The position numbers were made by a program, and so were the translations under genes. A stretch of 64,000 bases of DNA from Azolla caroliniana (taxonomy: Eukaryota; Plantae; Polypodiophyta), in assembly GCA_043228905.1 (NCBI GenBank), contig JBHGNT010000001.1, positions 20,770,001 to 20,834,000 of the forward strand, in the 5' to 3' direction. The first letter of the stretch is position 1; each line of letters starts with the position of its first letter. Below, in pieces: positions 1,739 through 53,757 of this stretch. The notes below the pieces were generated by a model that ran no database searches, was not told where the DNA came from, and saw nothing but the letters and a program-made list of their open reading frames with translations.

Positions 1739-2664
1739 TCGGAAAAATAGGCCACCATGAAGAAGAGTGCCGAAAGAAGAAGCGTGAGTCGGCTTCCACA
1801 AGTCGACAACTCACCAATTACGCCCCCAATTCCGACTATGAAGATCATGGTGGAATGTTTGTAATGAGACATAGAGCAAATTCTATGTTGGCGTCTACTT
1901 CGACTAATGCCTCCAATTCGGAAGATGTATGGTTCGTCGATTCCGGTGCTTCAAACCATATGACATCCCATCAAGAATGGTTCAAAGACCTTCGAGAGCC
2001 GGATCGATCCGGTTATGTCGAGACCGGAGACGACACCACTCGTCCGATTCGGCATGTTGACAATGTCCCTTTCGGGAAAGAAGGTGAACAAACTTGCATA
2101 AAAATGTCTTACATGTACCTACCATAACGAAGAATTTGGTCTCGGTCGGCCAAATTGTGGAGCAAGGGATGCAAGTTTGATTCAACCAAGGAGGTTGCTT
2201 TAATTGAGAAGGAAGGCCAACTAATTGCTCATGGTCGAAGGGAAGGCCGAATGTTTATCCTCGAAACGAACGAGGTAAAATCGGCCATGTTTGCAAAGGG
2301 CCTCAAATCCGACACCGACATAGAGCTATGGCATAAAAGAATCGGCCATATCAATCTCAACAAACTCAAGGTGATGAAATCGAAAGGAGTCGTCATCGGG
2401 CTCCCGATCTTCAAAGAGAAAGAGATTGAAGGAGAATGTGAAGCATGCCAATTCAGCAAGCAACATCGGCACTCGTTCCCGAAGGAGAGGAACATGAGCA
2501 GAGGCCTATTGGGAACAACACAAACGACTATGTTTGGAGGATGTCGGTACTATGTTACCTTCATCGACGACTTCTCTAGATACACATGGATCTTTCCCAT
2601 GAGGATGAAGAGCGAATTGTTTACACAGTTCCAAAATTCAAAAGGGAAGTCAAAAAGACAACTG
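1739..2664 (+). pseudogene. Ty1/copia gag-pol fragment (zinc knuckle, protease, GAG-pre-integrase, integrase N-terminus), frameshifted
   Basis: GKIGHHEEEC knuckle remnant, WFVDSGASNHMT protease motif, LWHKRIGH..CEAC, YYVTFIDDFSRYTW; same family as the elements at 38326-44220 and 55294-61015. Confidence 0.9.
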
Positions 2665-3575
2665 GCCGTGGAGGAACGTCGTCTTCACGTCTAACTGCTC
2701 TACCTCGAGGTCCATGCTTGCAACTATGCTCAACACCGTCCGGATGGAAGTCATCTTTACTACTGGGGAAAATATCTCGAAGTCCACGCCCTTCTTCTGT
2801 TGGAACCCCTTCACCACGATCCTGGCTTTGTATCTCGGGGGGTTGCCGGCATCTCCCGATTTCAACTTGTACACCCACTTGTTTCGGAGTGCCCTCTTTC
2901 CTTTCAGAAACTACACCAATTCATACGTGTGGTTCTCATGCAAGGAATCCATCTCGTCCTGCATGGCACTCAACCACTTGCGGCTATGGGTGTCATCCTT
3001 CGCTTCTTCGAAGCTTTCCGGCTCCCCCTCATCGGTCAGCAACACATGCTCTTCATCCGGAAATCTCCGGGGGGCTCTTCTTTCCCGGAGAGGATATCTC
3101 CGTCCTCGGTTTTCGGTAACCAGCTCCTATGTCTGTTCTTCATCCGAATCTGATGCCAGGTCGTTTGGTTCCAGTTTCAGCTTCCTCTTCTTCTTCTGCC
3201 GGTTTGGTATCCTCACCGTAACCGGCCAGTTCTTCGATTGTCAACCGGCTCTTAGCCGGGTAGGTCCGAATCTCATTGATCCGATCCTTACCGGTCGACT
3301 CAGAGTTCATTATCTTCTTCTCTGACTCCTAGTCGGCAAGGGTCTTATCCTCCATGAAGATAATATCTCGACTCTAGAACACCTTCTTGTCGATGGGGTC
3401 CCACACTTGGTCATCTATGAACGTCACGTGACTTCGTGTCCACTTGACACACATCGGTATGCACCAGCTCCAGTGGTATATTCTGTCTCATCGGTGGCCT
3501 TGATCGGAAGCAGATCCAGTTTTGCTTACCGGCCAGGTAGTCGGTGCACCTCTCAAGATGCACGTCATTCACCGG

Positions 3576-4685
3576 TGTCGTGAAGATCCGTCACTACGCG
3601 CGGATCGTGAGGCGGAACCGCCGGGGTTCTGGACCGGAAGGGTTCAAAGTTGGTACAAGCTTTGGCGCAAGCTTTAGCGAGAAAGTACTTAGATAGATTG
3701 GGAAAGAGAGAAGTTGAGATTACACGATTGAGAGAGATTGATTGAACTTTTAACTTTAGATTTAAGAAACAAGTTACACGATCAATTTGATAACGAATTT
3801 CTTCTTCTTAATTTCATAAAAAAAACCGCGTTTTTCTCCTCCCCCTTCCTTCTTTTATAGATGCTCTCATGCATATGATGCATGTGAGGGTACAAGACAT
3901 GCATAAATTGCATGCTTGCCATTTGGCGCTTATGTATTACATGTGGTGCATGATAACCATGTCACTCATTTTAGCTCTCATGTATGAGAATTTACACATA
4001 AAAGTACAAGTACAATGATAGAAATATAAATTCAACTAAATGGCATTGCTTAATGGTAAGCCAATTGAATCCTAACTCGGAGGTGCAAGGTTCGAATCCT
4101 TACTTGCCCTCCTTGTATATGTATATATATTTATATATTTATTTATCTAGTCATCGGACGCCGGTTCGCCGGATGCCGTCGGTTACCGGTGCCTCGCTGG
4201 ATGCCGTCACCTCGTCGCCGTCGGATGCTAGTGTCTCACTGGCGCCGGATGCCGTCACCTCACCGGCGTTGGATGCTGTCGGTTACCGTTCACCGGTCCG
4301 GTTTTGGTTGGCCAAAACCATTTACGAGTAGCTAGCCCACCTCCACTCTTAGTTCAAGTTACCTTGAACTCTCTATGCTCCACACATAGACACAAAGATA
4401 ATATCTTTTGCTCTACCTTATATATGATGAGAGCCGTATTTGTCGTGCCTATGTGGGATATCTCACAATTTTCTCTTTTCTTTTCACAAACTTTATACCC
4501 TCATATCTTGACATTTAGTTGTCCGTTTCTCGTGTAATAAAGTGCATTCGAAACCTCCATCATTTTGTACTTAGATATTAAATTTATTTAAAATGTTATC
4601 TTCACAATTATTGTATTATGTGATTCATACTCGATTTTGTACGTTTTATGGGATTTTTACACTATTGTCGAAAATCTTCACAACA
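3576..4685 (-). repeat. 3' LTR of the gypsy element 3576-9773
   Basis: Direct repeat of 8638-9773, TG...CA termini, PPT adjacent. Confidence 0.95.
4042..4108 (+). ncRNA. tRNA-derived Pol III promoter-like sequence inside LTR (not a functional tRNA)
   Basis: A-box-like TTGCTTAATGG (4046-4056), perfect B box GGTTCGAATCC (4089-4099) in AAGG/CCTT T-stem, GGCA/TGCC ends; tRNA-like spacing. Confidence 0.7.
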
Positions 4686-4757
4686 TCCACCCCCATCAAA
4701 CCGCACGTCCTCCGGTACGTGCCAAGAAGAGAGAAAGTGAGATTTCGGCTACGGTGA

Positions 4758-6419
4758 TCAATTAGATTCCTCCATGTCTTCATTTACATCTGCCCTATTA
4801 TGTTCATCGTCGAGGTAATCGAGGTCAGGATCCTTGTCTTGTGTTTTCTTGAAAATCTTTACTCTTTTTCCCGCAATGGGTACGGCCAACCTTGATTCGT
4901 CTAGTTCTGCAAGGTGGTATGTGGCATTATCATTGGCACTTGTCACCACATACGGCCCGAACCATCTTCTTTTGAACTTCCTTGTTGTACTGTGTTGATT
5001 GTCAAGGGTGCTGTCATAAACCAAAACCCAATCCCCTTCTTCAATCTTCTTGGGACGAAGTCGATGCGTGTTGTCGAACCGAACTTTGTTCTTTACTCGG
5101 GCTGCCTCCATCATCTTTCGTGCTTTTTCTAAATCTTCAGGTCTTCTTTCAAGTTGCCTTATCCGCGCCGCTAATAACTCTTCGTGGCTCATCACGTTCT
5201 CCCACGGTATCGCTACCCATGAGGCGATCGTCCTTTCGATGGGCATAATCGGCTTTTGTCCATACATAAGCTCCGTCGGCATATACCCTGTCACCGAGCT
5301 ATGTGTCGTTCTATCAGCCCACAAGGCATAGGGTAATAGTCGTGGACAATTCCCGACTTGACCGTTGCATGCCCGTACGATGGCTTTAACGATAGGTCCA
5401 TGCCCTCGCTCGATCTTCCCATTCGCTTCTGGATTGTGGGCAGTCGTGAGGGAGAGCTTCACACCTAGTCTTTCGAAGAGCTCCGTCGCTTCATGCGCGT
5501 CCAACTCCCCTCGGTTGGCCACTATCTTCCCTACACATCCATATCGGCAAACAACCTCTTCAAGCAGAAATTTGCAAACGGCTAAAGTCGTCTTATTTGT
5601 CAAGGCTCGTCCTTCCACTTGATTTGTCAAGTCTTCCCTTGCCAGCATTAAGTACTTCATTTGTCCTACTCCCATTGGCATCGAGACCAGATCCACCATC
5701 CATTTGAAGTGTATGGTGAGTGGGTATGTCGGCTGTAACTCATCATGATGACGTATATTGGAATATATTTGGTTAGTTTCGCATGTGGACACGAAATGGA
5801 GTACATCTTTGTACATGCTTGGCCACCAATACTTCTCCTTCAACTTTTCGAACGTTGCCCATGTTCCTCTATGACCTGCCCAAGCACTCTCGTGGAATTC
5901 GGTCATCAACGTCTCTTGCTCTTCTTTCTTTACCACCACTCGACGTGGTATTCCTGTCCTTCTTTTTGGATGTCGCCAAAGGAATCCTCCCTTCAACAAG
6001 TATCGGTAAGCTTTCTTTCGGATTCGTAGGGCCTCCTCCTTTGTCAACGAAGCATTTGTCGTCAATGTTCTTAGGAATCTACTAATGAGTAACCACTCTC
6101 CTTCGTACTCGTTCTCGTTGAAGGCGTGGAGGGTTTGCGTGTCCTGGTCTTCTGCCGACAATCGAGCCATCTTGAAGAAGTCAAGGGCGACATCTTCATC
6201 TTCTGAAACCATGTTACTTCCATTTGAAAATCTTGCCCTCGATAGCATGTCAGCCATGGTGTTCTTCTTCCCTGCAATGTGACGGATCTCTGGGTTTAAA
6301 GACTTGATGTAGGCGATCCACCTTAGCATAGCAAGATCTGGGGTCGCACATCCCGAGACCATTCCGAGAATTGGGAGACAATCTGTTTCTATTATCACTT
6401 CTGACCCGATTCCTTTCAT
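4758..6419 (-). CDS. RNase H C-terminal remnant plus intact Ty3/gypsy integrase (553 aa ORF created by the deletion)
   Basis: FHESAWAGHRG..C zinc-finger region, WMVDLV, HNPEANGKIERGHG catalytic core, RRWFGPYVV GPY/F motif; uninterrupted ORF. Confidence 0.85.
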   Translation of the reverse strand: MKGIGSEVIIETDCLPILGMVSGCATPDLAMLRWIAYIKSLNPEIRHIAGKKNTMADMLSRARFSNGSNMVSEDEDVALDFFKMARLSAEDQDTQTLHAFNENEYEGEWLLISRFLRTLTTNASLTKEEALRIRKKAYRYLLKGGFLWRHPKRRTGIPRRVVVKKEEQETLMTEFHESAWAGHRGTWATFEKLKEKYWWPSMYKDVLHFVSTCETNQIYSNIRHHDELQPTYPLTIHFKWMVDLVSMPMGVGQMKYLMLAREDLTNQVEGRALTNKTTLAVCKFLLEEVVCRYGCVGKIVANRGELDAHEATELFERLGVKLSLTTAHNPEANGKIERGHGPIVKAIVRACNGQVGNCPRLLPYALWADRTTHSSVTGYMPTELMYGQKPIMPIERTIASWVAIPWENVMSHEELLAARIRQLERRPEDLEKARKMMEAARVKNKVRFDNTHRLRPKKIEEGDWVLVYDSTLDNQHSTTRKFKRRWFGPYVVTSANDNATYHLAELDESRLAVPIAGKRVKIFKKTQDKDPDLDYLDDEHNRADVNEDMEESN

Positions 6420-8576
6420 GATTGGCTCGCACCGTTAGGAATTGGACCGATCTTTGGTTGTCAAGAATCTTTATTCGTGTGAAGGCTGCTCCATTATCGA
6501 ACACTTTGGTCTCCATCCGAGATGATGTGATATAAGGTTGCCCTAGTATGACAGGATGCGACGCCGATTCTTGTACGAAGAAGTGTTGATCCATCTCCAC
6601 ATCCCTGATTGTGACTTTGATATTGGGACAAGCTCCGTACAAGTCCTCCGTAGACTTTGTTGCCGCGCGAATCTTCCATCCGTGGTTTGTATTGATTGGC
6701 CATCTTCCTTTTTTGTAGAAGTCGGTTGACATGAGGTTGATCTCCGAGCCATGGTCGATCAAGGCTACCACGGTCTCTTTCTTCTCCCCGATCTTCACTG
6801 GCGTCTCCGTTGTCGCTTGTGCCCAATGAGGTCGAGTATAGTGGCTGTCCACCATATTTCATCGACTTCGTCTCTTGCCATCGTTATGGCATTCGTTTTT
6901 GCTTTTTGCGGCTTCTCTTCTTCCTCGTCCGATTGTTGTCTCTTTCTCTTTACAAGGTCCATGATCGTGTCATGGAACTCCTTCTTCGTAATGCCAAGCA
7001 ATTCCCTCAAGGACAAAGTTACGTGGCTATCAAGAACTCGTTCTTCGAGAATCTTCTTTAGGTCCATCGTCTGCTCTATGTCCGACCTTAGCTTATAGGT
7101 AGGTATAGTCCTTGTCCTCCGAGCGGGGTCTTCGACACCAACCTTCATGGGCCGAACCATTTCTTCAACTCGTATGCTCGGCTCCCCTTTTCGGCTTGAT
7201 TCTCGTTCCTCCATTTGTAAAGGCCGACTCGTCTCCGCATCGTCCTTCTTTTTCGCATTCCTTGTTTCATGTCTTTTTAATGGGCCTTGCTCTTCTATTC
7301 TCTTTCTCTTTTCTTCGACGAACACCTCGTGGTTGTCGCACATCACCTCTGCGAGTATGGTGTTGTTGTCCAACGGATCCGACCACCCGGTTATGCTTTG
7401 CACACTTCGGTCCGCAAGCTCTACCTCGTTCGATGTGACTTTTCCGTTCTTCTCATATTCAAGAACGGAAGTCCAAAACTTTGCTCCCGCTCTAGCAGCT
7501 TCAGTCTTGTCTTTCCCGACTCTTATTCCGGCCGACGCAACATAGTGCATCGCATCCACATGAGTTGCATCGACATCCTCCATAGATTTCTTCATTCCTC
7601 CTCTTCCGAAATTCACCCGTAGGGGTCTTCTAGTCTTGCTTGAGCAGATCATGTTGTCCTCTATGTATACGATATTTTGTCGAATCGCCTCTCGAAGGCT
7701 CGCACAATCCCTTCTCATGTGGTCCATGCTATCGCACCACACGCATCTAAAAGGTTCTTTTCCTTTAGGGCCCCGACGATTCATGTTGGCTAGCGTGACC
7801 TTCTCAAACTTCTTCGCTAGCTCTTCAATGATGTCTTCATCAATCTTCTTTTCTTCCACGTTACTTTGTCTTGGTGGCTCAGCTACTTTCGGTGGTCTTG
7901 CTTTCTCCGTGGTAGTCGGTCCCGTCAAGTCGGTGTCATCAACCCATTGGCGACGCTTGTCGAGCCTATTGCATGCCCGCTTCATCGCGATCCAGTCCGC
8001 TACGAGCCCATTTGCTTGGGTATCATCTTCGAGAAGAGTCCCCAACTCCCATCTATCCTTTATGTCCACCGCCTTCAAGGAGTACAAAGTCTTGTCCTCA
8101 TCAAGCAACACTTGGTCCGTATTGGGGAGACGACTAAACATCTGGTCGAATTCGTCGTACACCCTCAAGACGCTCGTCTTCTTATTCTTCTTCTCTATCC
8201 ACTTCATCAGGGCATGTCAAGTCATCCTCTTTGAGTCTTCTGTCACGAACTCTGCTTGTATCATTTTCTCGAACTCGGACCGTGTTGTCTTACCTTCTTG
8301 AAGCTCGATGACTTGTCTTTGGATGTTGTTGGCGACAACTCTCTTGAGGCTTACGATTTGACGTGCCTCGAACACGTCCCTTTGATTCATCTCCCTTCTA
8401 TATGCATCAAGGAACTTCATAACATTCCTTCCATCGAATTGGCCCTCGAGCTCTACGACACGATCGACAGCCTTCTCCACGCTCGCGTCGTTGTCCTGAG
8501 ATCTCATCATTTGCTCGACGATTAGCATCATCCTTTCGAGCTCTCCCGCTTGGTTGCTTGAGGACGCCTTCTCCAA
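6410..8576 (-). pseudogene. gag-protease ORF of the gypsy element (one stop near 8217, one frameshift near 6855)
   Basis: FDGRNVMKFL gag N-terminus, CVWCDSMDHMRRDC knuckle, ALIDHGSEINLM aspartic protease, ILGQPY. Confidence 0.85.
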
Positions 8577-8611
8577 GTATTAATCTTGACTTGATCCTTC
8601 CTACCGCCTCT

Positions 8612-8629
8612 TTCACGTCAGGTTCACCA
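8612..8629 (-). promoter_or_regulatory. Primer-binding site complementary to tRNA-Trp 3' end
   Basis: Minus strand TGGTGAACCTGACGTGAA, 8 nt inside the 5' LTR; matches the complement of the plant tRNA-Trp 3' end (TTCACGTCGGGTTCACCA, from memory) with one mismatch. Confidence 0.8.
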
Positions 8630-8637
8630 CTTAATTA

Positions 8638-9773
8638 TGTCGTGAAGATCCGTCACTACGCGCGGATCGTGAGGCGGAATCACCGGGGTTCTGGACCGGA
8701 AGGATTCAAAGTTGGTACAAGCTTTGGCGCAAGCTTTAGCGAGAAAGTACTTAAGATAGATTGGGAAAGAGAGAAGTTGAGATTACATGATTGAGAGAGA
8801 TTGATTGAACTTTTAACTTTAGATTTAAGAAACAAGTTACACGATCAATTTGATAACGAATTTCTTCTTCTTAATTTCATAAAAAAAACCGCGTTTTTCT
8901 CCTCCCCCTTCCTTCTTTTATAGATGCTCTCATGCATATGATGCATGTGAGGGTACAAGACATGCATAAAATGCATGCTTGCCATTTGGCGCTTATGTAT
9001 TACATGTGGTGCATGATAACCATGTCACTCATTTTAGCTCTCATGTATGAGAATTTACACGTAAAAGTACAATGATAGAAATATAAATTCAACTAAATGG
9101 CATTGCTTAATGGTAGGCCAATTGACTCCTAACTCGGAGGTGCAAGGTTCGAATCCTTACTTGCCCTCCTTACTTGCCCTCCTAACTCGGACGCCGGTTC
9201 GCAGGATGCTGGATGCCGCCGGTCGTCGTCGGATGCCAGTGTCTCACTGGCGCCGTATGCCGTCGGATGCCGTCAACTCAACGGCGTCGGATGCCGTCAG
9301 TTACCGTTGCCGTCGCCGGATTGCCGTCGGATGCCGGTGTCTCACTGGCGCCTGATGCCGCCGGATCACCGGTTCCATCGCCGGTCCGGTTTTGGTTGGC
9401 CAAAACCATTTACGAGTAGCTAGCCCACCTCCACTCTTAGTTCAAGTTACCTTGAACTCTCTATGCTCCGCACATAGACACAAAGATAATATCTTTTGGT
9501 CTACCTTATATATGATGAGAGCCGTATTTGTCGTGCCTATGTGGGATATCTCACAATTTTCTCTTTTCCTTTCACAAACTTTATACCCTCATATCTTGAC
9601 ATTTAATTGTCCGTTTCTCGTGTAATAAAGTGCATTCGAAACCTCCATCATTTTGTACTTAGATATTAAATTTATTTAAAATGTTATCTTCACAATTATT
9701 GTATTATGTGATTCATACTCGATTTTGTATGTTTTATGGGATTTTTACACTATTGCCGAAAATCTTCACGACA
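8638..9773 (-). repeat. 5' LTR of the gypsy element 3576-9773
   Basis: Direct repeat of 3576-4685, PBS adjacent. Confidence 0.95.
9099..9165 (+). ncRNA. tRNA-derived Pol III promoter-like sequence inside LTR (second copy)
   Basis: TTGCTTAATGG A box, GGTTCGAATCC B box (9146-9156), anticodon-loop-like CTCCTAA (Arg-CCT-like). Confidence 0.7.
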
Positions 9774-11136
9774 CCGGAATGAGGTTTTCATCGGCAAGCC
9801 TCCTCATCCCCTTCTCGCTCATGTGACACAGTGTCTTGTGCCACAGCTCACCGGTAGTGTCGGATGCCACGTTCACATCTTTCCGGCATAACCGGGCATT
9901 CATTAGGTACAGAGTGTTGACTATTAGGCTCCCTTTGCTGAACTTCATGACTCCGTTCCAGATGCTACCCGTGTAGCCTTCATTGTCTAGCCGACCGGCT
10001 AATATTAGGTTGAGTCGAACCTCCGGAACGTGTCGAACATCCTTCAGGAGCAGCTTGCATCCGGTTGGTGTTGTCAACCACACGTCTCTTATGCCGACAA
10101 TTCGGCATGTACCTTTATTTCCCATCCAGACACAGCCGTGATCACCAACTATGTAGGATGAGAAGCATTTCCGGTCTAGGGTAAGGTGGAATGACGCTCC
10201 GGAATTGACAACCCACGTTGTCTCATTGCCGGCAAGGTTCAACTCACTCTCCTCGGTGATAAGCATCAACTCTTCTTCACTTGCCGCGATTGTCGTTGTT
10301 CCCTTCCGGTCCGGTCCCCTCCGGTCTTTACCGTTTCGGTTCGGTGACCGCTTCAAATCGGTACTATCGGTTTCCTTGTCTTTTCCGAAGTGCCGACAGT
10401 TCTTTTGGAAGTGTCCCGGTTTGCCGCAATAGAAGCAAGTAGGGCTCCCCCTTGACTTTGACCGTGTCCCCGACTTTTTCCGGTTTTGGGGACTACGATT
10501 CCTTTGTCTTCCGCGTTCCAATTTGGTAAGGAGCGCTTTGGAGTCGGAGCTCGCGCCTCCTCATCTAGCAAGCTCGACTTGACTCTTGCTAGGGATAATT
10601 GTTTTCCTTCCGGCCCGACATTGCCCAAAGTGACAACCAACGTCTCCCAGCTATCTGGGAGGGAACCGAGCAGGAGTTAGTACCTCATCGACAAGAGGTA
10701 CTTCCAACGATGTTGCTTGGTGAATCAGCCCGTGGACGGCATTCATGTGCTCTGCCATGCTGGAGCCATCTTGGTATCGGAGTCTTACTAGCTTCCGGAA
10801 TACCGAAACCCGATTAACAACAATTTTCTTCTGAAACATAATGTCGATCTTCTCCCAAAGCTCATGAACCTTGCTCTCCTCATTAAAGTTGTTGTACAGG
10901 CTCATGTCGATGAAACATCGGATGTATGCTGTTGTCTTCATGTGCATTACCTCCCATACCGTGGCGTCGATCTTATCCGGTCTCTTGTCCTTGAAATGAA
11001 CCGGCAACCAAAGATCTTTAACCACGAGCATGTCCCTCATCTTCGACTTCCACACTGAGTAGTTGGAGCCGGTGAGCTTGAACATGCCTCCCAACGAATC
11101 TTCCATTTTCTGTATCGTTTTGCTCTGATACCAGAT

Positions 11137-11796: not shown

Positions 11797-12389
11797 TGAT
11801 ATTCCACAAAGGGTGTGGAGCGGAAAGACGTATCGTACCGACATTTGAGGGTGTTTGGTTGTCTTGTCTATGTGCATGTGGCAAAGGACCAGAGGGGGAA
11901 GTTGGACCCAAAATCTCGGCCATGCATATTTCTCGGCTACGACGATGACGAATTCGGTAATCGGCAATGCAACATAGCCGATAAGAAGGTGGTTAGGAGC
12001 TGAGACATTGTCTTTATGGAGAAACGCATTTTACTACAAATGAAATGGATAAATAAGTATTAAGTTATGTGAATATGAAGTTGAGAATATAAGGAAAATA
12101 GAATTGTGAAATATCCTACATAGATAGGAAACTTTAGGATCCATCTATATAAGCATAGACGGAGCCGGCGACGAAGTTGGGAACCAAAACCGGATGACGA
12201 CGTAACCGGTAACCGGCGGCAATCGGACGGAGCCGGCAATCGGCAATCGGACAGAACCGACAACTGTATGGCGACGGAACGGAAACCAGACACGGACTAG
12301 ACGGATCGGATGGGCAACGGTCGAGATGGACGGATGATAGGATCATGTGGTGAATTAAAGTAAAATAAAGTAAAGGTCATGTGGAAGGC

Positions 12390-12545
12390 ATGCTACTAAA
12401 GGTACAGGCCATGCAACTAAAAGTAAAGGCGAAGCAACTAAAAACGGAGGCCATCCAACTAAAAGAAAAGGTGAAGCAACTAATAAAGGAGGCTATGCAA
12501 CTAAAAATAAAGGCCAAGCAACTAAAACTGGAGACCAGGAAACAA
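12390..12545. repeat. 21-bp tandem repeat (GCAACTAAAAGTAAAGGC-NNN) in gypsy 5' LTR
   Basis: About 7 imperfect copies; longer counterpart at 31087-31285. Confidence 0.85.
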
Positions 12546-12970
12546 AAAGGGGACGTGTGCAAAGGAACATGGGAGGCGATGATCAAGAAGGAACTCGATA
12601 TATGTACCACTTTTTTTTCTCTAGTTTCGTCTTTTTTTTGGGGGGGGCATTCTCTTTTGCTCCCTCCTATTCCTTGCGGAAAAAACTCTAAGCCTAATTA
12701 TCTTAGAGAAGAAAATCCTAATTTTCCTATGAAATCCATATCTCCGTTTCTTCTAATCTATTATCTATTAATCTCCGTAACCTTAAACTTTTGTAATCCC
12801 AATCTTGGGATAGATTGTAATCTTTCTTTCCCTTTGTTAATGAAATTTGTCGATCTTTCTCATTTCCATTAATTCTTTAATATAAACATATGAATTTGAT
12901 ATGCTCTGGTCAGAGGCCCCTGGGTCCTGCCTCAAGTTCACGTATCCTTGTCGTATTTTCGCAACATCTT

Positions 12971-12988
12971 TAGTGAACCCGACGTGAA
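12971..12988 (+). promoter_or_regulatory. Primer-binding site, tRNA-Trp
   Basis: TAGTGAACCCGACGTGAA 4 nt after LTR end (...GCAACA 12966); one G>A change from TGGTGAACCCGACGTGAA. Confidence 0.8.
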
Positions 12989-13934
12989 ACGAGGCGGCAG
13001 GAGGATATCAAGTGCAACGATGGCTTCGAAAAGCGGAACTCAAAGAGAGGAATTAACGAAAGACATGGTGTCCATTGTGGAATACATGCTGAAGGCGAGA
13101 GATCGAGGGGCTTGAATCGACAAAGTTGTTGATCGAACGGTGGAGATATCTGGACGATTTGGTGGCAAGAATATCACGGATTTCCTTGCAACCTATCGGA
13201 ACGAGATGCAAGAGAGGGATGTCTATGATTTGAAACAAATTTCTAGTTGTCGGGAACTCAACGCTCCTTATGCATAAAGCTCGGCCACAACCGAGATTCT
13301 TTTCATACACAGAAAACAGGAAACGAAAACATGACTCAAAGGAGAGTAAGATACACAGGAGGTTTACGTGGAAAACCCCAAACTAGGGGAAAAACCACGG
13401 CAGCCCACAGGCTGCAAACTGTCACTATGTAAGAATGTACAAAACAGTGAGTTCACGGAGGCAACGACCTCGGACTCACGATCTTCGCCACAGGCGGCGG
13501 TTACAACAGAGGCAACGACCTCGTCTCTCTCTCTCGCTCTCTGTATAGTTACGCACTCTCTCTTCTTCTTGCACCAACAAGAAAAATAACAACATCATAA
13601 TATTAGTTTGCCCTAAGTCATATTTATACTAATATGACTTTTCGGCTATTTACAAATGTAGCCTCGATGGGCTCTTAGAAACATATTTACGAATATGTCT
13701 CTTCCTCTGGTTCACACCAGGCTTGCATCATCCGGCTCTCCGTAGCCGGGTACTCCTCATCCGGTTCACACCGGGCCTGCACCATCCGGCTCTCCGTAGC
13801 CGGGTACTCCTCATCCGGTTCACATCGGGTCTGTATCATCCGGCTCTCCGTAGCCAGGTACTCCTCATACGGTCTTCGGCACTGATCTTCTCCCTTCCCA
13901 TCCGGAGGGACCTGTCTCCCAACAAACTCCCCCT

Positions 13935-16900
13935 TCACTCCGGCATGGGGTGTCCTACCAGTCCGATTCTCTTCCGGCATGCGTCCAGCTTGTCGGGTGT
14001 CAGCACTTTGGTCAGCATATCTGACCCGTTCTCGGTCGTGTGGATCTTTGTCAGTGCGAACTCCTGGTCATCTACTCTTTCCCGGATCCAGTGATACCTC
14101 CGCTGGATATGCTTCGTCTGGGAATGGTAGGCCGCATTCTTAGCAAGGTGGATGGCACTTTGACTGTCGCAGTAGAGTCGGTATTCCTCTTGCCGGATAC
14201 CGAGCTCTCCGATGAAGTCCTTCATCCATAATATTTCCTTGCCGGCTTCCACAGCTGCCATGTACTCCGCCTCCGTGGTTGACAATGCAACCGTCTTCTG
14301 CAGCCTCGACTGCCACGAAACAGCTCCCCCTGCATATGTCATCACATACTTGGATGTAGACCGGCTGGTATCCACATCAGCCGACATGTCCGAATCGGTG
14401 AAACCATCCAGTTGAGGTTTTCCGGAGCCGAATCGGAGACACATATTTGAAGTGCCCTTCAAATACCGGAGTATCCATTTGACCGCGTTCCAGTGCTCCT
14501 TGCCGGGATTGCTCATAAACCGGCTCACAACCCCTACTGCATATCCTATATCCGGTCGGGTACACACCATTGCGTACATCAAGCTCCCGACGGCAGAGGC
14601 ATATGGGATCTTCATCATTTCTGCCTTCTCTGCTTTCGTCTTCGGGCTTTGCTGGCCGGATAGCTTGCAGTTTGCCGGAAGTGTCGATCCGACCGGTTTC
14701 GCTTCTGACATGTTGAACCGGTGAAGCACCTTTGTCACATACTTCTCCTCTGACAACCATAATTGCTTCTTTGACCGGTCCCGAATGATGTGCATCCCCA
14801 GCATCTGTCTTGCCGGACCCAAGTTTTTCATTGAGAAGGTCCGGTTGAGAGCCTTCTTCAGCATCCGTATTTTGACTTGGTCACGTCCGACGATCAACAT
14901 GTCATCCACGTACAGAAGGAGTATCAGGAAGTCGCCTCCTTTAAACTTCTTCACAAACACGCAGTGATCGGCCTGCGTCTTGTGGTACCCTTGATCGGTC
15001 ATCAAGAAGTCGAACTTCCGGTACCATTGACGGGGAGCCTGCTTCAGTCCGTACAGGCTCTTCTTCAACCGGCATACCAGGTGCTCCTTCCCTTTCTCCA
15101 CGAATCCTTCCGGTTGCTGCATGTAAATCTCCTCTTCGAGGTCGCCGTGAAGGAATGCCGTCTTCACGTCCAGCTGCTCTACCTCAAGGTTCATGCTTGC
15201 TGCTATACTCAACACCGTCCGGATGGAGGTCATCTTTACTACCGGGGCAAATATCTCGTCGAAGTCCACGCCCTTCTTCTGCTGGAACCCCTTCACCACT
15301 ATCCTGGCTTTGTATCTCGGGGGGTTGCCGGCATCTCCCGGTTTCAGCTTGTACACCCACTTGTTTCGGAGTGCCCGCTTTCCTTTCCGCAACTCCACCA
15401 ATTCGTATGTATGGTTCTCATGCAGGGAATCCATCTCGTCCTGCATGACACTTAACCATTTTCGGCTGTGGGTGTCTTCCTTCACTTCTTCGAAGCTTTC
15501 CGGCTCCCCTCATCGGTCAGCAGCACATGCTCTGCATCCGGAAATCTCCGGGGGCCCCTTCTCACTCTGAGAGGATATCTACGTCTTTGGGCTTCGGTAG
15601 CCGGCTCCTCCATTTGCTCTTCATCCGAATCCGATTCGGGGTCTTGGCCGGTTCCGGTTTCAACTTCCTCTACTTCTTCTTCTGCCGGTTTGGTATCCTC
15701 ACCGTAACCGGCTGGTTCCTCGAGTGCTAACCGATCTCTTGCCGGTTGGGTCTGCTCATCGTAGAGTCTATCCTTACCAGTCGACTCAGAGTTCATTATC
15801 TTCTTCTCCGACTCCCAGTCAGCGAGTGTCTTGTCCTCCATGAAGATAATATCTTGACTTTGAAATACCTTCTTGTCGACCAGGTCCCACACCCGGTAGC
15901 CGAACTCATTGTCGTCGTAACTGAGGAATATGCATGGCCGGGTCTTCGGATCTAGTTTTCCTCTCCGGTCCTTAGCTACATGCACGTACGCGAGACACCT
16001 GAACACCATCAGATGCCGGTAGGACACTTCCTTACCGGTCCATACTCTGTGTGGCGTGTCTCTGTCCAGGGGTACTGAGGGTGATCTGTTTATCACGTAT
16101 GTCGCCGTCGACAGTGCCTCAGTCCAAAACTTCTTGGGTAGGTTTGCATGCGCTAGCATACTCCGGATCCTCTCCATTATGGTCCGGTTCATCCTCTCGG
16201 CCAGTCCGTTTAGTTCCGGCGTCTTCGGCACGGTAAATTCGAGCCGGATTCCCTTCGAGCGGCAGTACTCCTCGAACTGCCCCCGGTACTCTCCTCCGTT
16301 ATCTGCTCGAACCGCCTTCAGCTTCCGGCCTGTTTCTCTTTCCACTCTCGCGTGGAGCTCTTTGAAGACGGATAACACCTGATCCTTTGTCTTCAACGGT
16401 GTGGCCCACAGCTTCCGGCTGTGGTCATCTATGAACGTCACGAAGTACTGCGCTCCGGCATGTGACTTCGTGTCTACTTGACACACATCCGTATGCACCA
16501 ACTCCAGTGGTGCATTACGTCTCATCGGTGGCCTTGGTCGGAAGGAGGTCCGGTTCTGCTTACCGGCCAGACAATCAGTGCACTTCTCTAAGTGCACGTT
16601 CTTCACTGGAATGAGGTTGTCGTCTGCAAGCCTCTTCATCCCCTTCTCGCTCATATGACACAGCCTCTTGTGCCACAGCTCACCGGTAGTGTCGGATGCC
16701 ACGTTCACTTCTTCCGGACATAACCGGGCATTCATTAGGTACAGTGTGTTTACCTTCCGGGCCCGAGCCACAATCAGGCTCCCTTTGCTGAACTTCATGA
16801 CACCATTCCGGATGCTACCCGTGTAGCCTTCATCATCTAGCCGACCGACTGATATCAGGTTTAGACGAACCTCCGGAACGTGTCGGACATCCTTCAGCAG

Positions 16901-27100: not shown

Positions 27101-29458
27101 ATGTCAAGGTGCAACGAATTCGGTGGCCCATATGGTGAATGCCATGAACAAGGTCTTGAAGGATTGCATCCCAGGCATCACAATGTCATTCTTGGATGAC
27201 ATTCTGATAAAAGGATGTTCAGATGAGGAGAAGGATGAATCAAAAGATAAGGATGGATGCAGAAAGTTCGTCGTGGATGCAGAAAGTTCGTCGAGAAGGT
27301 GCTCCAAAGGCTCAAAGATGTGAATTTGACATTTTTGGGAGAAAAAACCGCATTCGGGCAATCAGAGATCTTGGTGGTAGGTCACTTGTCAGGAGCATAC
27401 GGTCGGAATCCTTCACCATCCAAGGTGAATGCGATCCAGGACATGAAAGAAGAATGTGTAACCCAAACGGAGGTTCGTAGGTTCCTTGGAGCATGCGTGT
27501 TTTATCATATTTGGATTCCACACTACGCTCACATTGTTGAAGCGGCAGTTCGAATGGACAAGTGAGCATACTATCGCCATCTAAAGGTTGAAGAAATTAT
27601 TGATGGAGGTACCTACATTATGGAAGGCAGACTATTCAAACGGGAAGACCATTTTCGTGATCGTGGATACTAGTCCAACCAGAATCGGATGGGCTATCAA
27701 CCAAGAAGATGAAGATTGCAACCGATATGCAATTCGGTTTGACGCAAAAGGGTTAAGTGATAGGCAAAGAAGGTATACCCAAGTGAAGAGGGAGCTATGG
27801 GGAATCGTTTCGGCGATCAAGTCTGATCGTGACTACCTTATTGGAGCAGAAGTCATAATTGAGACAGATTGCCTACCAAATTTGGGTATCATATCTAGTT
27901 GTAATACACTAGATATTGCCATGTTGCGCTAGATTGCATATATCATCAAATCACTCAACCCGGAGATCCATCATGTAGCTGGGAAGCGTAATGTCATTGC
28001 AGACATCTATCACGAGCGAGATACGACGGAGAGGAAGATCGACATTCTGATGAAGAGGATGTTGGCTTGGATTTCTTTACAAGTTCCTACGCTCGGGTGT
28101 TGACTACTTCCATAGAAGGGGACTACGAAGGTGAATTTGTGGAGATTGGGAAATACTTGAGTTCTCTCCAAAAAGATGAATCATGGTCAATGGAAGACTT
28201 CCATCGAATTCGTAAGAAGGCGTAAAAGTATTTCCTTAAGGATGGAGCTCTTTGGAGGCATGCAAAAAAGAAGAATGGGACTCCAAAGAGAGTTGTTTGC
28301 AAGCTAGAGGATCAACAAAAACTAATGTCTGAATTTCATGATAGTGTTTTTGCAGGCCATCGAGGAATATGGGCTACGTTCGCGAAGCTCAAGGAGAAAT
28401 ATTGGTGGTTGGGCATCTACAAAGATGTAGCAGCTTATGTGGAAACATGTAAGGAATATCTGATGTTTTCGAATATTCGCCATCGAGATGAACTTCATCC
28501 GACTTACCCGTTGGCTATGCATTACAAGTGGATGGTGGACATCGTAATGATGCCAATGGGGCGACGACAGATGAAGTATCTTGTGCTTGCAAGAGAGGAT
28601 CTTATCAATCAAGTTGAAGGGTGAGCATTGAGAACTAAGGAGACATCATCAGTATGCAGATTCCTTCTTGAAGATGTTATTTGCAGATATGGATGCGTTG
28701 GCAAGATAGTGGCTGATAGAGGCGAGCTAGATGCCAATGAAGCTAGAGAATTCTTCTCTAGGATGGGAATCAAATTATCTCTTACCACTGCGTATAATCT
28801 GGAAGCAAATGGGAAAGTGGAACGTGGCCATGGATCGATTGTGAAGGCTCTAGTGAAAGCTAGCCATGGGAAAATAAGAGAATGGCCGCGACTATTGTCA
28901 TTTCCACTATGGGTTGAAAGGACTACTCACAGCATGGTGACGGGATACATGCCAGCAGAGCTCATATTCGAACAAAATCCGACAATGCCAATAGAACAAA
29001 GTATTGTTTCATGGTTTGCATTGCCATGGCAAGATGAGATAAGTAGAGAAGATCTTCTCGCATTGAGGATTCGACAGTTGGAGTAGAAGTTGGAAGATAT
29101 AGATGTGGCTAAAGAGCGGCTCAAGAATGCAAGGTTGAAGAACAAGAAATACTTCGACAAATGACATCGACTTCGTCCGAGGAAAATTGTTGAAGGAGAT
29201 TGGGTGTTGGTCTATGACAGTAGCCTAGACAACCAACATAGTACGGCTCGAAAATTTTCACAACGATGGTTTGGACCATATGTGGTGAAGAAACTGGAAG
29301 ATAATGCAACATATCGTTTAGCAGAAGTAGATTGTACACCACTTGCCTTGCCAATTTCTAGAAAAAGAATCAAGATCTTTAAGAGAAGAGATAGAATAGA
29401 AATCGGATTCGAAGCTTTCGACGATTCTATCTTGGGCATCAACGAAAAAGTAAAGTAA
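24107..29458 (+). pseudogene. gag-protease (to 26045) and RT-RNase H-integrase (from ~26042) of the gypsy element 12024-31712
   Basis: CVWCDSFEHSRREC, ALIDHGSEIN, YSNRWFTVPKKNG, DLYSGYDQ, FLDDILIKG, VDTSP..KRELWG, WFGPYVV; many premature stops. Confidence 0.9.
26036..26098 (+). promoter_or_regulatory. Putative -1 programmed ribosomal frameshift signal (G_GAT_TTT_TAA plus pseudoknot)
   Basis: Heptamer 26036-26042 in the protease frame just before its TAA; -1 frame is open into the RT-side ORF; 9-bp stem 26048-26056/26072-26080; TGGGG 26063-26067 pairs with CCCCA 26094-26098. Confidence 0.75.
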
Positions 29459-29979
29459 TCAAAAGTGGAGCCTCACCAAAATTGGCACATACCAGTGGAT
29501 GTGCAGGTTTGGTGGGGGTGAATGTCGTGTGATTCTTCACACACTATGTAAAAAATAATAAAATAATAATTTTAGATTAGATTAATGGCTTGATATGGGA
29601 AGATAGATGTCTTCAAGAGCTTAATAACGCATTTTACTACACATGAAACGGATAAATACGTATTAAATTATGTGAATATGAAGTTGAGAGTATAAGGAAA
29701 ATAGAATTGTGAAATATCCCACATAGATAGGAAACTTTAGGATCCATCTATATAAGCAGATTGAGAACTATTAGTTTTCATCTATGTGTTGAGAGCACAA
29801 AAGGAATGGTTAGACTTGGACCAATTTGTCTACATGGACAAATGTAGCTAAGGAAACCAGAAACTAGAAACCGGATGGAGCTGGTGATTGGATAGAACCG
29901 GCAATCAGAAACCGGATGGAGCTGGCAACTAGAAACCGGAAACCGGACGGAGTTGGCAACAAAGTTGGGAACTGGAACC

Positions 29980-30777
29980 TGTTGGGAGACAGGTCCCTCC
30001 GGATGGGAAGGGAGAAGAACGGTGCAGACCTGGTGAGAACCGGATGAGGAGTCCCCGGCTACGGAGAGCCAGATGGTGCAGACCCGGTGAGAACTGGATG
30101 AGGAGTACCCGGCTACGGAAAGCCGGATGGTGCAGACCCGGTGAGAACTGGATGAGGAGTACCCGGTTACAGAGAGTCGGATGGTGCAGACCCGGTGAGA
30201 ACCGGATAAGGAGTACCCGGTTACGGAGAGCCGGATGGTGCAGACCCGGTGAGAACCGGATGAGGAGTACCCGGCTACGGAGAGTCGGATGGTGCAGACC
30301 CGGTGAGGAATGCTCACCGGATGAAGAGAAATATTCGTAAATATGTTTCTGAGATTCCATCGAGGCTATATTTGTAAATAGCCGAAAAGTCATATTAGTA
30401 TAAATATGACTTAGGGCAAACTTTTAGGTTACTGTTGGTTGTTGTCATATTCTTGTTGGTGCAAGAAAAGAGAGAGTGTGTAACAGTGTACAGAGAGAGA
30501 GACAAAGAGGTCGTTGCCTCTGTTGTAAGCGCCGCCTGTGGTGAGAATCGTGAGCACGAGGTCGTTGTCTCCGTGAACTCACTGTTGTACATTCTAGCAT
30601 AGTGATAGTTTGCAGCCTGTGGGCTGCCGTGGTTTTTCCCTCTTTGGTTTTTCCACGTAAACATCCTGTGCACTCGTTTCTTCTTCGTGTCGTGTTTTAT
30701 TTCCCGTTTTTTTTTGTATGATTCTAAGCTCGGTTGTGGCCGAGCGTTGTGCATAAGGAGCGTTTGAGTTCCTGTCA
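29980..30777 (+). mobile_element. Solo copia LTR inserted in the gypsy 3' LTR
   Basis: Reverse-complement match to LTR 13248-13924; TG...CA; flanks GAACC/GAACT; about 5 copies of a 54-bp repeat. Confidence 0.9.
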
Positions 30778-31086
30778 GAACTGACAACCGACGATCAATC
30801 AGACGGAGTCGGCAATCGGCAATCGGACGGAGGCGGCAATCGACAACTGGACGATGATGGACTGGCAATCGGACGGAGCCAGAGATGAAGTAGGGAACCG
30901 AAACCGGATGACGACGGAACTGGCAACCGGCGGCAATCGAAAGGAGCCGGCAATCGACAACTGTACGGCCACGGAACAAAAACCGGATGTGGACCAGACA
31001 GATCGGATGGGGGACGGTTGAGATGGACGGATGATAGGATCATGCGGCGAATTAAAGTAAAATAAAGTAAAGGTCATGTGGAAGGC

Positions 31087-31285
31087 ATGCAACTAAAGGT
31101 AGAGGTCATGCAACTAAAAGTAAAGGCGAAGAAACTAAAAATGGAGGCCATGCAACTAAAAGTAAAGGCGAAGCAACTAAAAAAGGAGGCCATCCAACTA
31201 AAAGTAAAGGTGAAGCAACTAAAAAAGAAGGCCATGCAACTAAAAATAAAGGCCAAGCAACTAAAAATGGAGGCCAGGCAACAAA
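31087..31285. repeat. 21-bp tandem repeat in gypsy 3' LTR
   Basis: About 9 imperfect copies of GCAACTAAAAGTAAAGGC-NNN. Confidence 0.85.
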
Positions 31286-31965
31286 AAGTGGACGCGTGCA
31301 AAGGAACATGGGAGACGATGATCAAGAAGGAACTCGATATATGTACCACTTTTTTTTTCTCTAGTTTCGTCTTTCTTTTCTTGGAGGGGGGGGGGGGGGG
31401 CATTCTCTTCTGCTCCCTCCCATTCCTTGCGGAAAAAACTCTAAGCCTAATTATCTTAGAGAAGAAAGTCCTAATTTTCCTATGAAATCCATATCTCCGT
31501 TTCTTCTATTCTATTAATCTCCGTAAGTTTAAACTTTTGTAATCCCAATCTTGGGATAGATTGTAATCTTTCTTTCCCTTTGTTAATGAAATTTGTCAAT
31601 CTTTCTCATTTCCATTAATTCTTTAATATAAACATACGAATTTGATATCTTCCGGTCGGAGGTCCTGGGGTCCTGCTTCAAGTTCACGTATCGTTGTCGT
31701 ATTTTCGCGACTCCGGAAAGCTTTGAAGAAGTTAAACACGATACCCATAGCCGAAGTGGTTAAGTGTCATGCAAGAGGAGATGGATTCCTTGCGTGAGAA
31801 CCACACATACGAATTGACCGAGTTGCCAAAAGGGAAGAAGGCACTACGAAATAAGTGGGTATACAAACTTAAGTCAAGAGATGGCGGAAATCCACCTAGA
31901 TGTCACGAACAGGTGGAATGAGGCTAAGTACTAAGAGAGAGCGAGAGCATAAGCAAGATCACAAG

Positions 31966-37763: not shown

Positions 37764-38325
37764 TGTTGGGAACATGTCCCTCCGGATGGGAAGAGAAGAG
37801 CCGAGTTGATGAGTAACTCGGCCGAGGCCGAAGTCGAGGATATAGCCAACTGGGAGACTATATTTGTAAATAGTCGAAATGTGCCCCACGTAGGCTATGT
37901 ATGTAAATAGCCATAAAGTTGTATAAGTATAAATACAACTAAGGAAAACTTTAGTAGTGTAGTAGATCATTGTCGTATCATTGGGTTGTGAGTTACAAGA
38001 AGGTCTTTGCCTCTATAACTGTGTAAGACAGAGAGAGAGTGTGTAAGATGAGAGTGAGTGTAACTTTGTAGCCGTCTGTCAAACGAAGGTGAACTCGAGG
38101 TCATTGCCTCCGAGTTTCTCATTGTACTTCTCCTCTACCATAGTGATATGTTTTGGGGTTTGTGAACTCCACGTAGTTTTTCCCAATTTGGGTTTCGACG
38201 TTAAATCTTGTGTCCCTGTTTCTAGTTGTATTTCTGTCGTTTTTCAGTCCGTGCACATTCATCTTGATTTTTGCACCCGACTATACGAACGAACTGCGGG
38301 TTCTGGCCGGTCACGATTGTCAACA
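37764..38325 (+). repeat. 3' LTR of the copia element 11797-38325
   Basis: TGTTGGG after PPT; ends GTCAACA; similar to other copia LTRs in the window. Confidence 0.8.
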
Positions 38326-41300
38326 ATGGGTTGTGGCTTGTTCTGACTTCATTGGACTCAGCTCCCTTTTTCTTCTTCTTGTCTCCCCTTATCTCTCCAG
38401 CTCTTTGTCCGGTTCCATCACCTGTTTTCCCAGTTTCCGTTCCGGTTCTCCCCCTCAAGTGCGGCATGTCAAGATGCTGAAGACCAAGCATCTTGTAAAA
38501 ATGTTGCAACTTGTCGGTTCTGAGGGCCTTGGTGAACATGTTGGCAATATGTTGATCCGTCTGGACATACCGGAGTTCTACTTCATCACTGAGGACCTGC
38601 TTGTACACAAAGTGATAATGCACTTCTATGTGCTTCGTTTGAGCATGGAACGCAAGGTTCTTGGCGAGCTGCATTCTGCGCATGTTGTCGCAATAGATCA
38701 GGATCGGAGTCGGGACTTCGATCTGGAGGTCTTCCAGCAGCCGCCGAAGCCAGATGGTTTCACAGGTGGCAATAATAGCGCCCCGATATTTGGCCTCAGT
38801 GCTCGACAAAGCCATTGTTGGCGGCTTTTTGCTGCTCCACACAACAATTGTGCTACCTAGAGAGAACGTGAATTTTGAAGTGGATCGTCGATCTGACACA
38901 TCTCCGGCCCATTTGGCATCTGTGTATCCGACTAGCTTTTTGGTCAGTATAACAGTCCCTTGTCCTTAGAGCCGCTAACATACTAGAGTATCTAGTGTGT
39001 GCACTAAAGGTGCTCCACGGTCGGTTTCTACATGAATTGGCTAATCACTCTGATACGATATCTGATGTCGGGTCGGGTGATAGTTAAGTAGATAAGGCAT
39101 CCGACAATTTGTTGGTACCATTTCTCGTTGCAAGCCAGTCCGGAGTGGGGACATAGCTTCAGGTGCCGGTCCAGGGATGTGGAGATCGGTCGGCAATCCG
39201 TCATGCCGAACTTGTACATCATATTCAACACATAGTGTCGTTGTGAGAGCAATATGTCGTCGGGGGTGTGGATCACTTCGATCCCGAGGAAGAAATGAAG
39301 GTTCCACGGGTCCTTCATTTTGAATGCATCCGACAGTTGGGACTTCACTTGGCCGATTTCAGCAAGTCTGGGTCTGCTGATGACTAGATTATCTACATAT
39401 AATAGGATAGATACCAGACCATCCAGACCATTCCGGATGAACAGTGAAGAATCCGACTTCAAGGCCACAAACCCCATCTTACACAATTGGTGTGATCTTC
39501 GAATTCCAAGCATGGGGGGCTTGCTTCAAGCCGTAAAGGGACTTTTGAGTCGGCACTCTACCGACTTGTTCATCTCCGACTGAAATCCGGGGGGCTAGAT
39601 CATGTAGACCTATTCTTCAAGGTTTCCTTGAAGAAACGCATTCTTCACATCCATTTGATGAAGATGTCACCCCCCTTGCCGCAACAACTGCTAGCACCAC
39701 ATGAACCGTCATCATCTTTGTTACTAGAGCAAAGGTCTCGCCGTAATCGATTACGTGCATCTGCGCATCTGCGCGTTGTCGTGTCGTTTTTCACACATGA
39801 TATGAAAACTATGCAGAAAAATAATGAAATAATTATTTTAGATTAGATTAGTAGCTTGTTATAGAGAGATGGATGTACTCAAGAGCTTTAAAACGTATTT
39901 CACTCCATACAAAATGGAAGTTATGAGGACACGAAGCTTGGGAAGATAGGGAAAATAGAATTTTGAAGTATCCCACATAGAGAGAAAACTTACGGCCCTA
40001 GCTATATAAGCACATTGAGATCCCTCTTTTTTTATTTGTGCTAAGAGCACTTTGGCCACTTTGTCTAGAAGGATGAATGTGGCCAAGTTCCCAAAAACCG
40101 ACTGGCAATAAAATGGAAGGATAAATGTGGCCAAGTTCCCAAAACTAACTGGCAATAAAATGGAACCGGCCGGTAAACAAATCGGAACCGGCCGGTAAGC
40201 AATCCGGAACCGGTCGGGAAGCAAACAGGAGCCGACCGGTAAGCAAATCGGAACCGGCGAAATCGGCAATCGAATGGTGTCGGAAATCGGGCGGATCCGA
40301 GAACCGGCGACCGGACGAGGCTGGATGCGAACCGGACGGATTGGATGGGCGGCGATCGAGATGGACAGATGATAGGATCATGTGGCTAATTAAAGTAAAG
40401 TAAAGAAAACTAAAGTAAAGGTCATGTGGACGGTTGCATGCAACTAAAAGTAGAGGCCATGCAAATAAAAGTGGGCATGCAAAGTAACATTGAAGGTTAT
40501 GATCAACGGGGAACTCCATATAAAATTCCATTTTTTTTTCCTACACTGAGGCTCTCTCCATATTTTTTATTTTCTTTTCCTTCTTAGCTCCCTTATCTTA
40601 TCGGAGCCATATCTCTCGTAAACCCTAATTTTCCCTACGGAAGCCATAACACTCAAAAACCCTAATTTTCCCTACGGAAGCCATATCTCTCGTATAACCT
40701 AATCTTATCTCTCAAAACCCCTCATTTTTCTTTTCTATTAATCTCAGTAAACCAAAAAGCTCTAAATCCCAATCTTGGGACATATTGTAATTTCTTTTCC
40801 TTTGTTAATGAAAAATATTAAATTTCTGATTTCCGTTAATTGTTAAAAATATAAGAGCACGAATGTAATATCCTCTAGTCAGAGACCCCGGGGTCTTGCC
40901 TCAAGTTTGAGTAAGTTCGTCGTATTTCCGTGACAGTGTAACCTTTGACCATTAGTCGGACCTTGTACCAGTTGACCGAACCGTCACCATTATACTTTAC
41001 CTTGTACACCCACTTGCAACTGATCGGTTTGCAATGTCGGAGAGGGTCAAGTGCCCAAATCTCTTCCTCCATAGGGGCACGCCAATGTGCATCCCTTGCC
41101 GCTTCTGCGTAGCTCTCTAGCTCACGCTCTTTCGCCACTTTCGTCATGTACGCATAGTGATGCACCATGTACTCGTTGTACCCGTACCGTTTTACAGGGT
41201 TCTTGGCCAGCGTGGACTTCTCTTCCGAAGGTCCGTCTTCAATTTGTCCGGAGTCAGATTCGCTTTGATCCGACTAGTCTCTGCCGATGTCATATTTCGG

Positions 41301-53414: not shown

Positions 53415-53450
<36 letters not shown>

Positions 53451-53726: not shown

Positions 53727-53757
<31 letters not shown>

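What the first reader, a model, noticed from the sequence alone, without database searches (positions are those of the whole stretch)
1739..40939. One gypsy family makes 4-bp target duplications centred on CpG
Seen: CCGG on both sides of 3576-9773; GCGT/GTGT around solo LTR 39777-40935; CCGG after 31712; TCGG after 1738. All four sites fit NCGN. Two are confirmed as 4-bp duplications by reconstructing the host copia sequence; two are one-sided. The copia elements here have 5-bp TSDs, the usual value in plants. Inference: the integrase cuts symmetrically around (possibly methylated) CpG, steering insertion into other TEs without a chromodomain.
Basis: partly seen in the sequence, partly recalled or inferred. 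Interest (0 to 1): 0.7.

Follow-up and report, generated by a model that had tools for sequence, protein, structure and literature searches.

The report
Phygy-type retrotransposons insert at CpG
Several related jumping-gene families in this genome, likely a fern, almost always insert at a CG pair and duplicate four bases around it; this habit is already published for the moss lineage Phygy, to which they likely belong, and their pile-up inside other repeats is likely due to CG density and selection rather than to reading DNA methylation.

Summary
Genome-wide, 1,619 of at most 2,035 outer LTR junctions carry NCG, and 94% carry CG or its decay products TG/CA; background CG is 3.7%. Duplications are 4 bp (13 of 22 solo LTRs identical over 4 bp, 0 over 5 bp). 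Copia solo LTRs give 5 bp (12 of 12). The motif is really VCGB (TCG avoided). The TCGG site is two-sided (GCGG upstream of the window). The four sites are four LTR families of one lineage, not one family. It is known: REXdb lists Phygy as '4 bp (100%) (NCGN)', tRNA-Trp PBS, 7.7-10 kb, no extra domain. These elements match each feature tested; phylogeny could not be tested. The host is likely a fern, so this extends the lineage's range. Flanks are repeat-rich (55 of 66), but CG sites are themselves concentrated in repeats, and copia shows a similar excess. Methyl-CpG reading is unsupported, though not excluded. Earlier scan notes placed related elements near Phygy; none listed concerned this motif.

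The parts
3576..9773 (-). Family A non-chromovirus gypsy element with an internal deletion (~1.87 kb, RT and part of RNase H missing), inserted in a copia element
   Evidence: LTRs differ at 34 of 1,054 aligned bases
3572..3575 (+). Target duplication CCGG, left copy
9774..9777 (+). Target duplication CCGG, right copy
8638..9773 (-). 5' LTR of element A; ends carry a 12-bp inverted repeat (TG...CA)
3576..4685 (-). 3' LTR of element A
8613..8629 (-). Primer-binding site complementary to the host's own tRNA-Trp(CCA) 3' end (one mismatch in this copy)
4686..4697 (-). G-rich polypurine-like tract next to the 3' LTR
4758..6434 (-). RNase H end plus integrase (zinc finger, core, SH3-type tail), no chromodomain
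6406..8579 (-). gag-protease region (DUF4100-like), with breaks
12023..31712 (+). Family B element of the same lineage: 5' LTR remnant 12023-12965, tRNA-Trp PBS near 12970-12990, interrupted by copia elements 13248-24101, 3' LTR 29524-31712 holding a copia solo LTR; left junction deleted
31713..31716 (+). CCGG target remnant, right side of element B
39777..40935 (+). Solo LTR of a third family (74-80% patches to family B), inserted in a copia RT region
39773..39776 (+). Target duplication GCGT, left copy
40936..40939 (+). Target duplication GTGT, right copy (CG to TG change)
572..1738 (+). 3' LTR of a fourth family (D); 5' LTR lies upstream of the window, LTRs 11.1% apart
1739..1742 (+). TCGG, mutated right copy of a GCGG target duplication in a copia gag zinc knuckle

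Best explanation
These are several families of chromodomain-less Ty3/gypsy retrotransposons, likely of the Phygy lineage, whose insertions are flanked by 4-bp duplications of a symmetric VCGB target, likely because the integrase selects that sequence directly. Shown: 4-bp length, central CG, T avoided at the first and A at the last position, tRNA-Trp PBS, no chromodomain. Inferred: the symmetric integrase complex bends the target sharply at the central pyrimidine-purine step, as prototype foamy virus integrase does at its VYRB site, and added base contacts narrow YR to CG. Inferred: landing in repeats follows from CG-rich repeats in a genome whose low-copy DNA is CG-poor, plus the general force (selection or chromatin) that also puts copia there; TG/CA flanks are mostly later decay of methylated CG.
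For: Genome counts 1,619 CG, 139 TG, 162 CA of at most 2,035 outer junctions. Unselected set: 54 CG, 8 TG, 3 CA, 1 TA of 66; 13 of 22 solo LTRs identical over 4 bp, 7 differing by 1-2 transitions, 2 unmatched, none identical over 5 bp. In 92 outer flanks the first base is T in 5% (background 32%) and the last is A in 3% (32%). PFV consensus VYRB, with T and A disfavoured at positions 0 and +3 in 4-bp-TSD viruses (PMC4422553, passages). Phygy features. VCGB density 4.4 vs 1.8 per 200 bp in repeat vs non-repeat tiles; gypsy excess over VCGB expectation OR about 3.0, copia excess over random OR 2.5-3.7 (all 60 stretches). CG-poor stretches hold host genes in 5 of 15. In 10 of 16 solo LTRs chosen for a TG/CA flank, the other side still has CG.
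Against: Gypsy flanks are more often in repeats than random VCGB sites in all six comparisons (OR 2.2-8) and, with the unbiased library, more than copia (55 of 66 vs 35 of 54, p=0.033; not with the larger library, 57 of 66 vs 42 of 54, p=0.24), so a modest extra bias is not excluded. CG selection is far stricter than retroviral YR preference, so bending alone does not explain it. In 4 of 16 pairs both copies share the same TG or CA centre. No Phygy reference sequence was available for a tree; no methylation data.
Confidence: 0.72

Rival explanations
1. The integrase (or a partner) reads 5-methyl-CpG, which steers the element into silenced repeats without a chromodomain.
For: Near-absolute CG centre; no chromodomain; flanks exceed the VCGB-matched repeat expectation; TSD CGs decay to TG/CA, so they were methylated at some time.
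Against: Copia, without CG preference (CG in the last 5 bases at 10 of 54 outer sites), shows a similar excess. Low-copy, gene-holding DNA is CG-depleted (O/E 0.3-0.6), which suggests it has been methylated too, so methyl-reading need not spare genes. Decay can all postdate insertion. Drosophila gypsy-group elements select TATA, CGCG or ATAT by sequence (PMC5408687, passages).
Confidence: 0.15
2. Sequence selection of VCGB is as described, but a separate tether (integrase tail or host factor) adds real targeting to heterochromatin beyond what copia has.
For: 55 of 66 vs 35 of 54 repeat flanks (p=0.033); chromosome-1-matched OR 7-8 for gypsy vs 4-7 for copia; Phygy reported enriched at centromeres of a liverwort (PMC12885004, passage) and nested in Tcn1 in moss (PMC6911290, passage).
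Against: The ratio of odds ratios spans 1 in all six comparisons; no known targeting domain at E 0.1; copies lie along the whole of contig C1.
Confidence: 0.12
3. The NCGN flanks are chance or an artefact of CCGG-rich targets or of misplaced LTR ends.
For: Only four sites in the window; local copia DNA is CG-rich.
Against: At least 79.6% CG vs 3.7% background and under 7 CG per 100 bp even around random CG sites. All four first bases occur, ACGT is commonest, and flanks are unrelated sequences. LTR ends are fixed by PBS and PPT junctions.
Confidence: 0.01

Closest known systems
Phygy, non-chromovirus Ty3/gypsy clade of Physcomitrium patens (REXdb; Neumann et al. 2019, PMC6317226; passages and Additional file 5 read)
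   Same: 4-bp NCGN duplication, tRNA-Trp PBS, about 8 kb, short internal region filled by the polyprotein, no chromodomain, no archaeal RNase H.
   Different: Host is likely a fern, whereas REXdb called the clade species-specific to the moss (later reported in a liverwort, PMC12885004). Motif is refined here to VCGB. gag-protease and pol lie in two overlapping frames; REXdb gives the organisation as not determined.
Prototype foamy virus integrase target selection (Serrao et al. 2015, PMC4422553; passages read)
   Same: 4-bp duplication, symmetric VYRB site, T and A disfavoured at the outer positions; PFV integrase is the top solved-structure match (E 1.2e-17, level with Ty3 at 1.5e-17).
   Different: PFV preference is weak and accepts any YR step; here the centre is CG in at least 80% and likely over 90% of insertions. 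The match is distant and does not show close kinship.
TatI and Selgy (REXdb Additional file 5)
   Same: Non-chromovirus, 4-bp duplication; TatI also uses tRNA-Trp and is about 9 kb.
   Different: TatI carries an archaeal RNase H (none found here); Selgy uses tRNA-Ala and is about 5 kb; neither is listed with NCGN.
Drosophila errantivirus subgroups gypsy, ZAM, Idefix (PMC5408687; passages read)
   Same: Gypsy integrases with strict short palindromic targets (TATA, CGCG, ATAT).
   Different: Different lineage; the ZAM target CGCG has GC, not CG, at its centre.

Membership tests
Phygy | Ty3/gypsy domain order RT-RH-INT | tested here: met
   Pfam on three 1,170-aa pol frames of family A (L065, L067, L070): RVT_1, RT_RNaseH, Integrase_H2C2, rve in that order
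Phygy | 4-bp TSD with NCGN | tested here: met
Phygy | tRNA-Trp primer-binding site | tested here: met
   PBS matches the 3' end of host genes called tRNA-Trp(cca) in 4 of 4 loci scanned; the same PBS core occurs in 41 of 80 related metagenome loci
Phygy | No chromodomain, no archaeal RNase H, no extra ORF | tested here: met
   No chromo or RNase_H/RVT_3 hit at E 0.1 in 6 of 6 proteins; no further ORF of 250 aa inside full-length copies
Phygy | Length 7.7-10 kb | tested here: met
   Full-length family A copies with both ends seen are 7.8-8.2 kb (L063-L066, L069-L071); the window copy is a 6.2-kb deletion derivative
Phygy | RT/RH/INT fall in the Phygy clade of the REXdb tree (the primary criterion) | not testable with these tools
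   No REXdb sequences held; the only named relatives among the 120 listed hits of each search were Riccia proteins
TatI | Archaeal RNase H domain in the polyprotein | tested here: not met
Selgy | tRNA-Ala PBS, about 5 kb | tested here: not met
Chromoviruses (Tcn1, Galadriel, Tekay, Reina, CRM) | Chromodomain at the integrase C-terminus | tested here: not met
   pol is only 22% identical to the other gypsy element at window 32149-34062

The most novel reading that the evidence does not exclude
A Phygy-type integrase conserved across mosses, liverworts and ferns recognises methylated CpG itself, giving plant retrotransposons a chromodomain-free route into silenced DNA.
Probability: 0.15. Interest if true: 0.65.

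Novelty: new member of a known kind. Interest (0 to 1): 0.22.

Why it matters
The motif is not new, so the gain is modest. The data extend the one plant LTR lineage with a known sequence target to a likely fern, at high copy (at least 2,000 outer junctions for one terminal 15-mer), and refine NCGN to VCGB, the same outer-base rule as 4-bp retroviral integrases. They also show that a plain CG preference shifts landing towards repeats in a genome with CG-poor genes. The thousands of sites make the open question, whether methylation of the target matters, testable with one methylome.

Tried and rejected
Chance or CCGG-rich targets: rejected. 5-bp duplication: 0 of 22. One family: rejected. TatI, Selgy, chromovirus: rejected. 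My first guess of a moss host: not supported; the window's receptor kinase is closest to fern proteins (47-49%; one gene only). First repeat-context test used a weaker self-hit filter and was replaced; its result (gypsy 90 of 118, copia 16 of 22, random VCGB 291 of 400, random 194 of 400) points the same way. Metagenome relatives: the script returned 12 candidate outer junctions; 6 were inner or tandem junctions; of the other 6, five are NCGN and one is CTGC; these are collapsed contigs of unnamed hosts, so weak evidence. Search for P. patens Phygy proteins by homology: none among listed hits. Rfam and relaxed ARAGORN on the tRNA-like piece in the LTR: no hit. Pattern for a tRNA matching the segment before the 3' LTR: no hit. 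Paper searches: 'NCGN'+'retrotransposon' gave 3 papers, only REXdb relevant; six-term search on methylated CpG and 4-bp TSD gave 0; 'Phygy'+'fern' gave 3, two read in passages without a report of Phygy in ferns, the third not opened; Azolla and fern methylation searches gave nothing relevant. REXdb Additional file 1 (per-element table) was not seen and may hold the outer-base bias.

Full report
1. The four sites. The window is a nest of copia and gypsy elements with one receptor-kinase gene. Element A (3576-9773, minus strand) has CCGG on both sides. I aligned each flank separately to two uninterrupted copia copies; they overlap by exactly 4 bases. The solo LTR 39777-40935 has GCGT/GTGT, and a homolog shows a single GCGT at that point. 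Element B ends at 31712 before CCGG; its left junction is deleted. The LTR ending at 1738 has its partner 16 kb upstream of the window, with left flank GCGG, and a copia homolog reads GCGG, so this site is two-sided with one mutated copy. The four LTRs are only patchily alike: four families of one lineage. A, B and D share a tRNA-Trp PBS; the solo LTR is assigned only by likeness to B.

2. Genome-wide test. The terminal 15-mer, shared by family A and some sister families, occurs 2,944 times. 909 are inner PPT junctions, leaving at most 2,035 outer ones. Of these 1,619 continue NCG, 139 NTG and 162 NCA: 79.6% and 94.3%, lower bounds because variant inner junctions remain in the denominator. CG is 3.7% of dinucleotides in 400 kb of evenly picked DNA. 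Of the first 100 listed matches I recovered 83; the 17 not fetched were listed as inner junctions. The 66 outer ones give 54 CG, 8 TG, 3 CA, 1 TA; 22 solo LTRs give 13 identical 4-mers, 7 with 1-2 transitions, 2 unmatched, and no identical 5-mer. Copia control: 12 of 12 solo LTRs with both ends found have 5-bp duplications.

3. The motif. In 92 outer flanks (some are both ends of one insertion) the first base is A 49%, C 25%, G 21%, T 5% against 23/29/16/32% around background CG; the last is T 52%, C 24%, G 21%, A 3%. Only 4 of the first 100 listed NCG sites are TCG. The target is a symmetric VCGB, with little signal beyond a weak purine bias at the next base. Among 60 loci chosen for a TG or CA flank, 16 showed both outer ends: 10 keep CG on the other side, 1 is ACAT/ATGT (decay on opposite strands), 4 share the same non-CG centre, 1 is unmatched. 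So most non-CG flanks are later decay, and a few per cent may be true non-CG insertions.

4. What the element is. Full-length family A copies are 7.8-8.2 kb. Three have a 1,170-aa RT-RH-INT frame with no chromodomain and no archaeal RNase H at E 0.1. The PBS matches host tRNA-Trp(cca) genes. The window copy lacks RT. Named relatives among listed hits are Riccia proteins only. The host is likely a fern, from one gene.

5. Known. Neumann et al. [quoted passage not shown] Jedlicka et al. 2019 (PMC6911290; passages) report mostly 4-bp TSDs for Phygy and Phygy nested in Tcn1. Phygy is also named in a liverwort genome (PMC12885004; passages). Every testable Phygy feature is met; the tree could not be built, so membership is likely, not shown. 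TatI, Selgy and chromoviruses each fail a defining feature.

6. Mechanism. Serrao et al. 2015 (PMC4422553; passages) give the PFV site as VYRB with a sharp bend at the central YR step, and T and A disfavoured at the outer positions for 4-bp-TSD viruses. VCGB is a strict case of that rule. PFV and Ty3 integrases are the top solved-structure matches, at low similarity. I infer a symmetric complex that bends at CG, with extra base contacts that exclude TG, CA and TA; those contacts are not identified.

7. Steering and methylation. I scored 200-bp flanks for a BLAST hit elsewhere (over 20 kb away) in fetched DNA, a relative measure that misses low-copy repeats. Gypsy 55 of 66, copia 35 of 54 with the unbiased library; 57 of 66 and 42 of 54 with all loci. 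Expected values from 60 background stretches: random sites 43-48%, VCGB sites 62-68%; from 20 stretches of contig C1 alone, 30-33% and 42-44%. CG preference alone therefore raises landing in repeats. Gypsy still exceeds that expectation (OR 2.2-8.1), but copia exceeds its own by a similar amount (OR 1.9-6.9); the ratio is 0.78-1.63 and its interval spans 1 in all six comparisons. Against my reading, the direct gypsy-copia contrast reaches p=0.033 with one library, and samples are small. CG-poor stretches hold host genes in 5 of 15 (102 of 153 ORFs scanned), which suggests that low-copy DNA has lost CG through methylation as well. Nothing here shows that the target was methylated when the element arrived.

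8. Verdict. Real, strong and already described for Phygy; new only in host range and in the VCGB refinement, which my searches did not find in print. Earlier notes of this scan also place related elements of this genome near Phygy and in a fern; they are unchecked AI notes and were not used as support. Interest 0.22. The methyl-CpG reading stays open at about 0.15.

Noticed in passing
window 4686-4725 (-), 29484-29523 (+), 532-571 (+): A ~40-base segment before the 3' LTR is similar in three families: it starts TGGCAC and ends in the G-rich tract; on the opposite strand it ends like a tRNA 3' end. Earlier notes on this genome describe a tRNA-Arg-like site at the PPT position; here the orientation is not the 'sense copy' form, and no matching tRNA gene was found with one pattern.
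   Followed up: partly
L065, L066, L067, L070, L071; window 26035-26047: gag-protease and pol overlap in -1 frames at GGATTTT followed at once by a stop, which looks like a ribosomal frameshift site between protease and RT. REXdb lists Phygy organisation as not determined.
   Followed up: partly
window 4040-4115 and 9090-9165: tRNA/SINE-like piece with A- and B-box-like motifs inside family A LTRs; no Rfam or ARAGORN hit.
   Followed up: partly
L051 (right flank), L070:2591: L051 shows an insertion into the ACGT within another copy's primer-binding site; L070 has ACGC instead of the usual spacer between LTR and PBS.
   Followed up: no
window 51122-53835 (-): LRR receptor-like kinase gene; best hits are fern proteins at 47-49% identity.
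   Followed up: partly
window 31902-36000: A second, distant gypsy element (22% pol identity to family A) inserted in copia sequence; lineage not determined.
   Followed up: no
L173-L212: The genome is split into GC-rich, repeat-rich stretches with CpG O/E near 1 and AT-rich, gene-holding stretches with O/E 0.3-0.6, the reverse of the usual expectation for silenced repeats.
   Followed up: partly
P0001 vs Riccia proteins: Pol is up to 64% identical over the full region to liverwort proteins, and no named fern protein is among the listed hits; a lead for horizontal transfer or slow evolution, untested.
   Followed up: no
G000:C8:17.80-17.82 Mb and C16:4.99-5.11 Mb: Tandem arrays of the tRNA-Trp 3'-end motif, 14 and 19 matches.
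   Followed up: no
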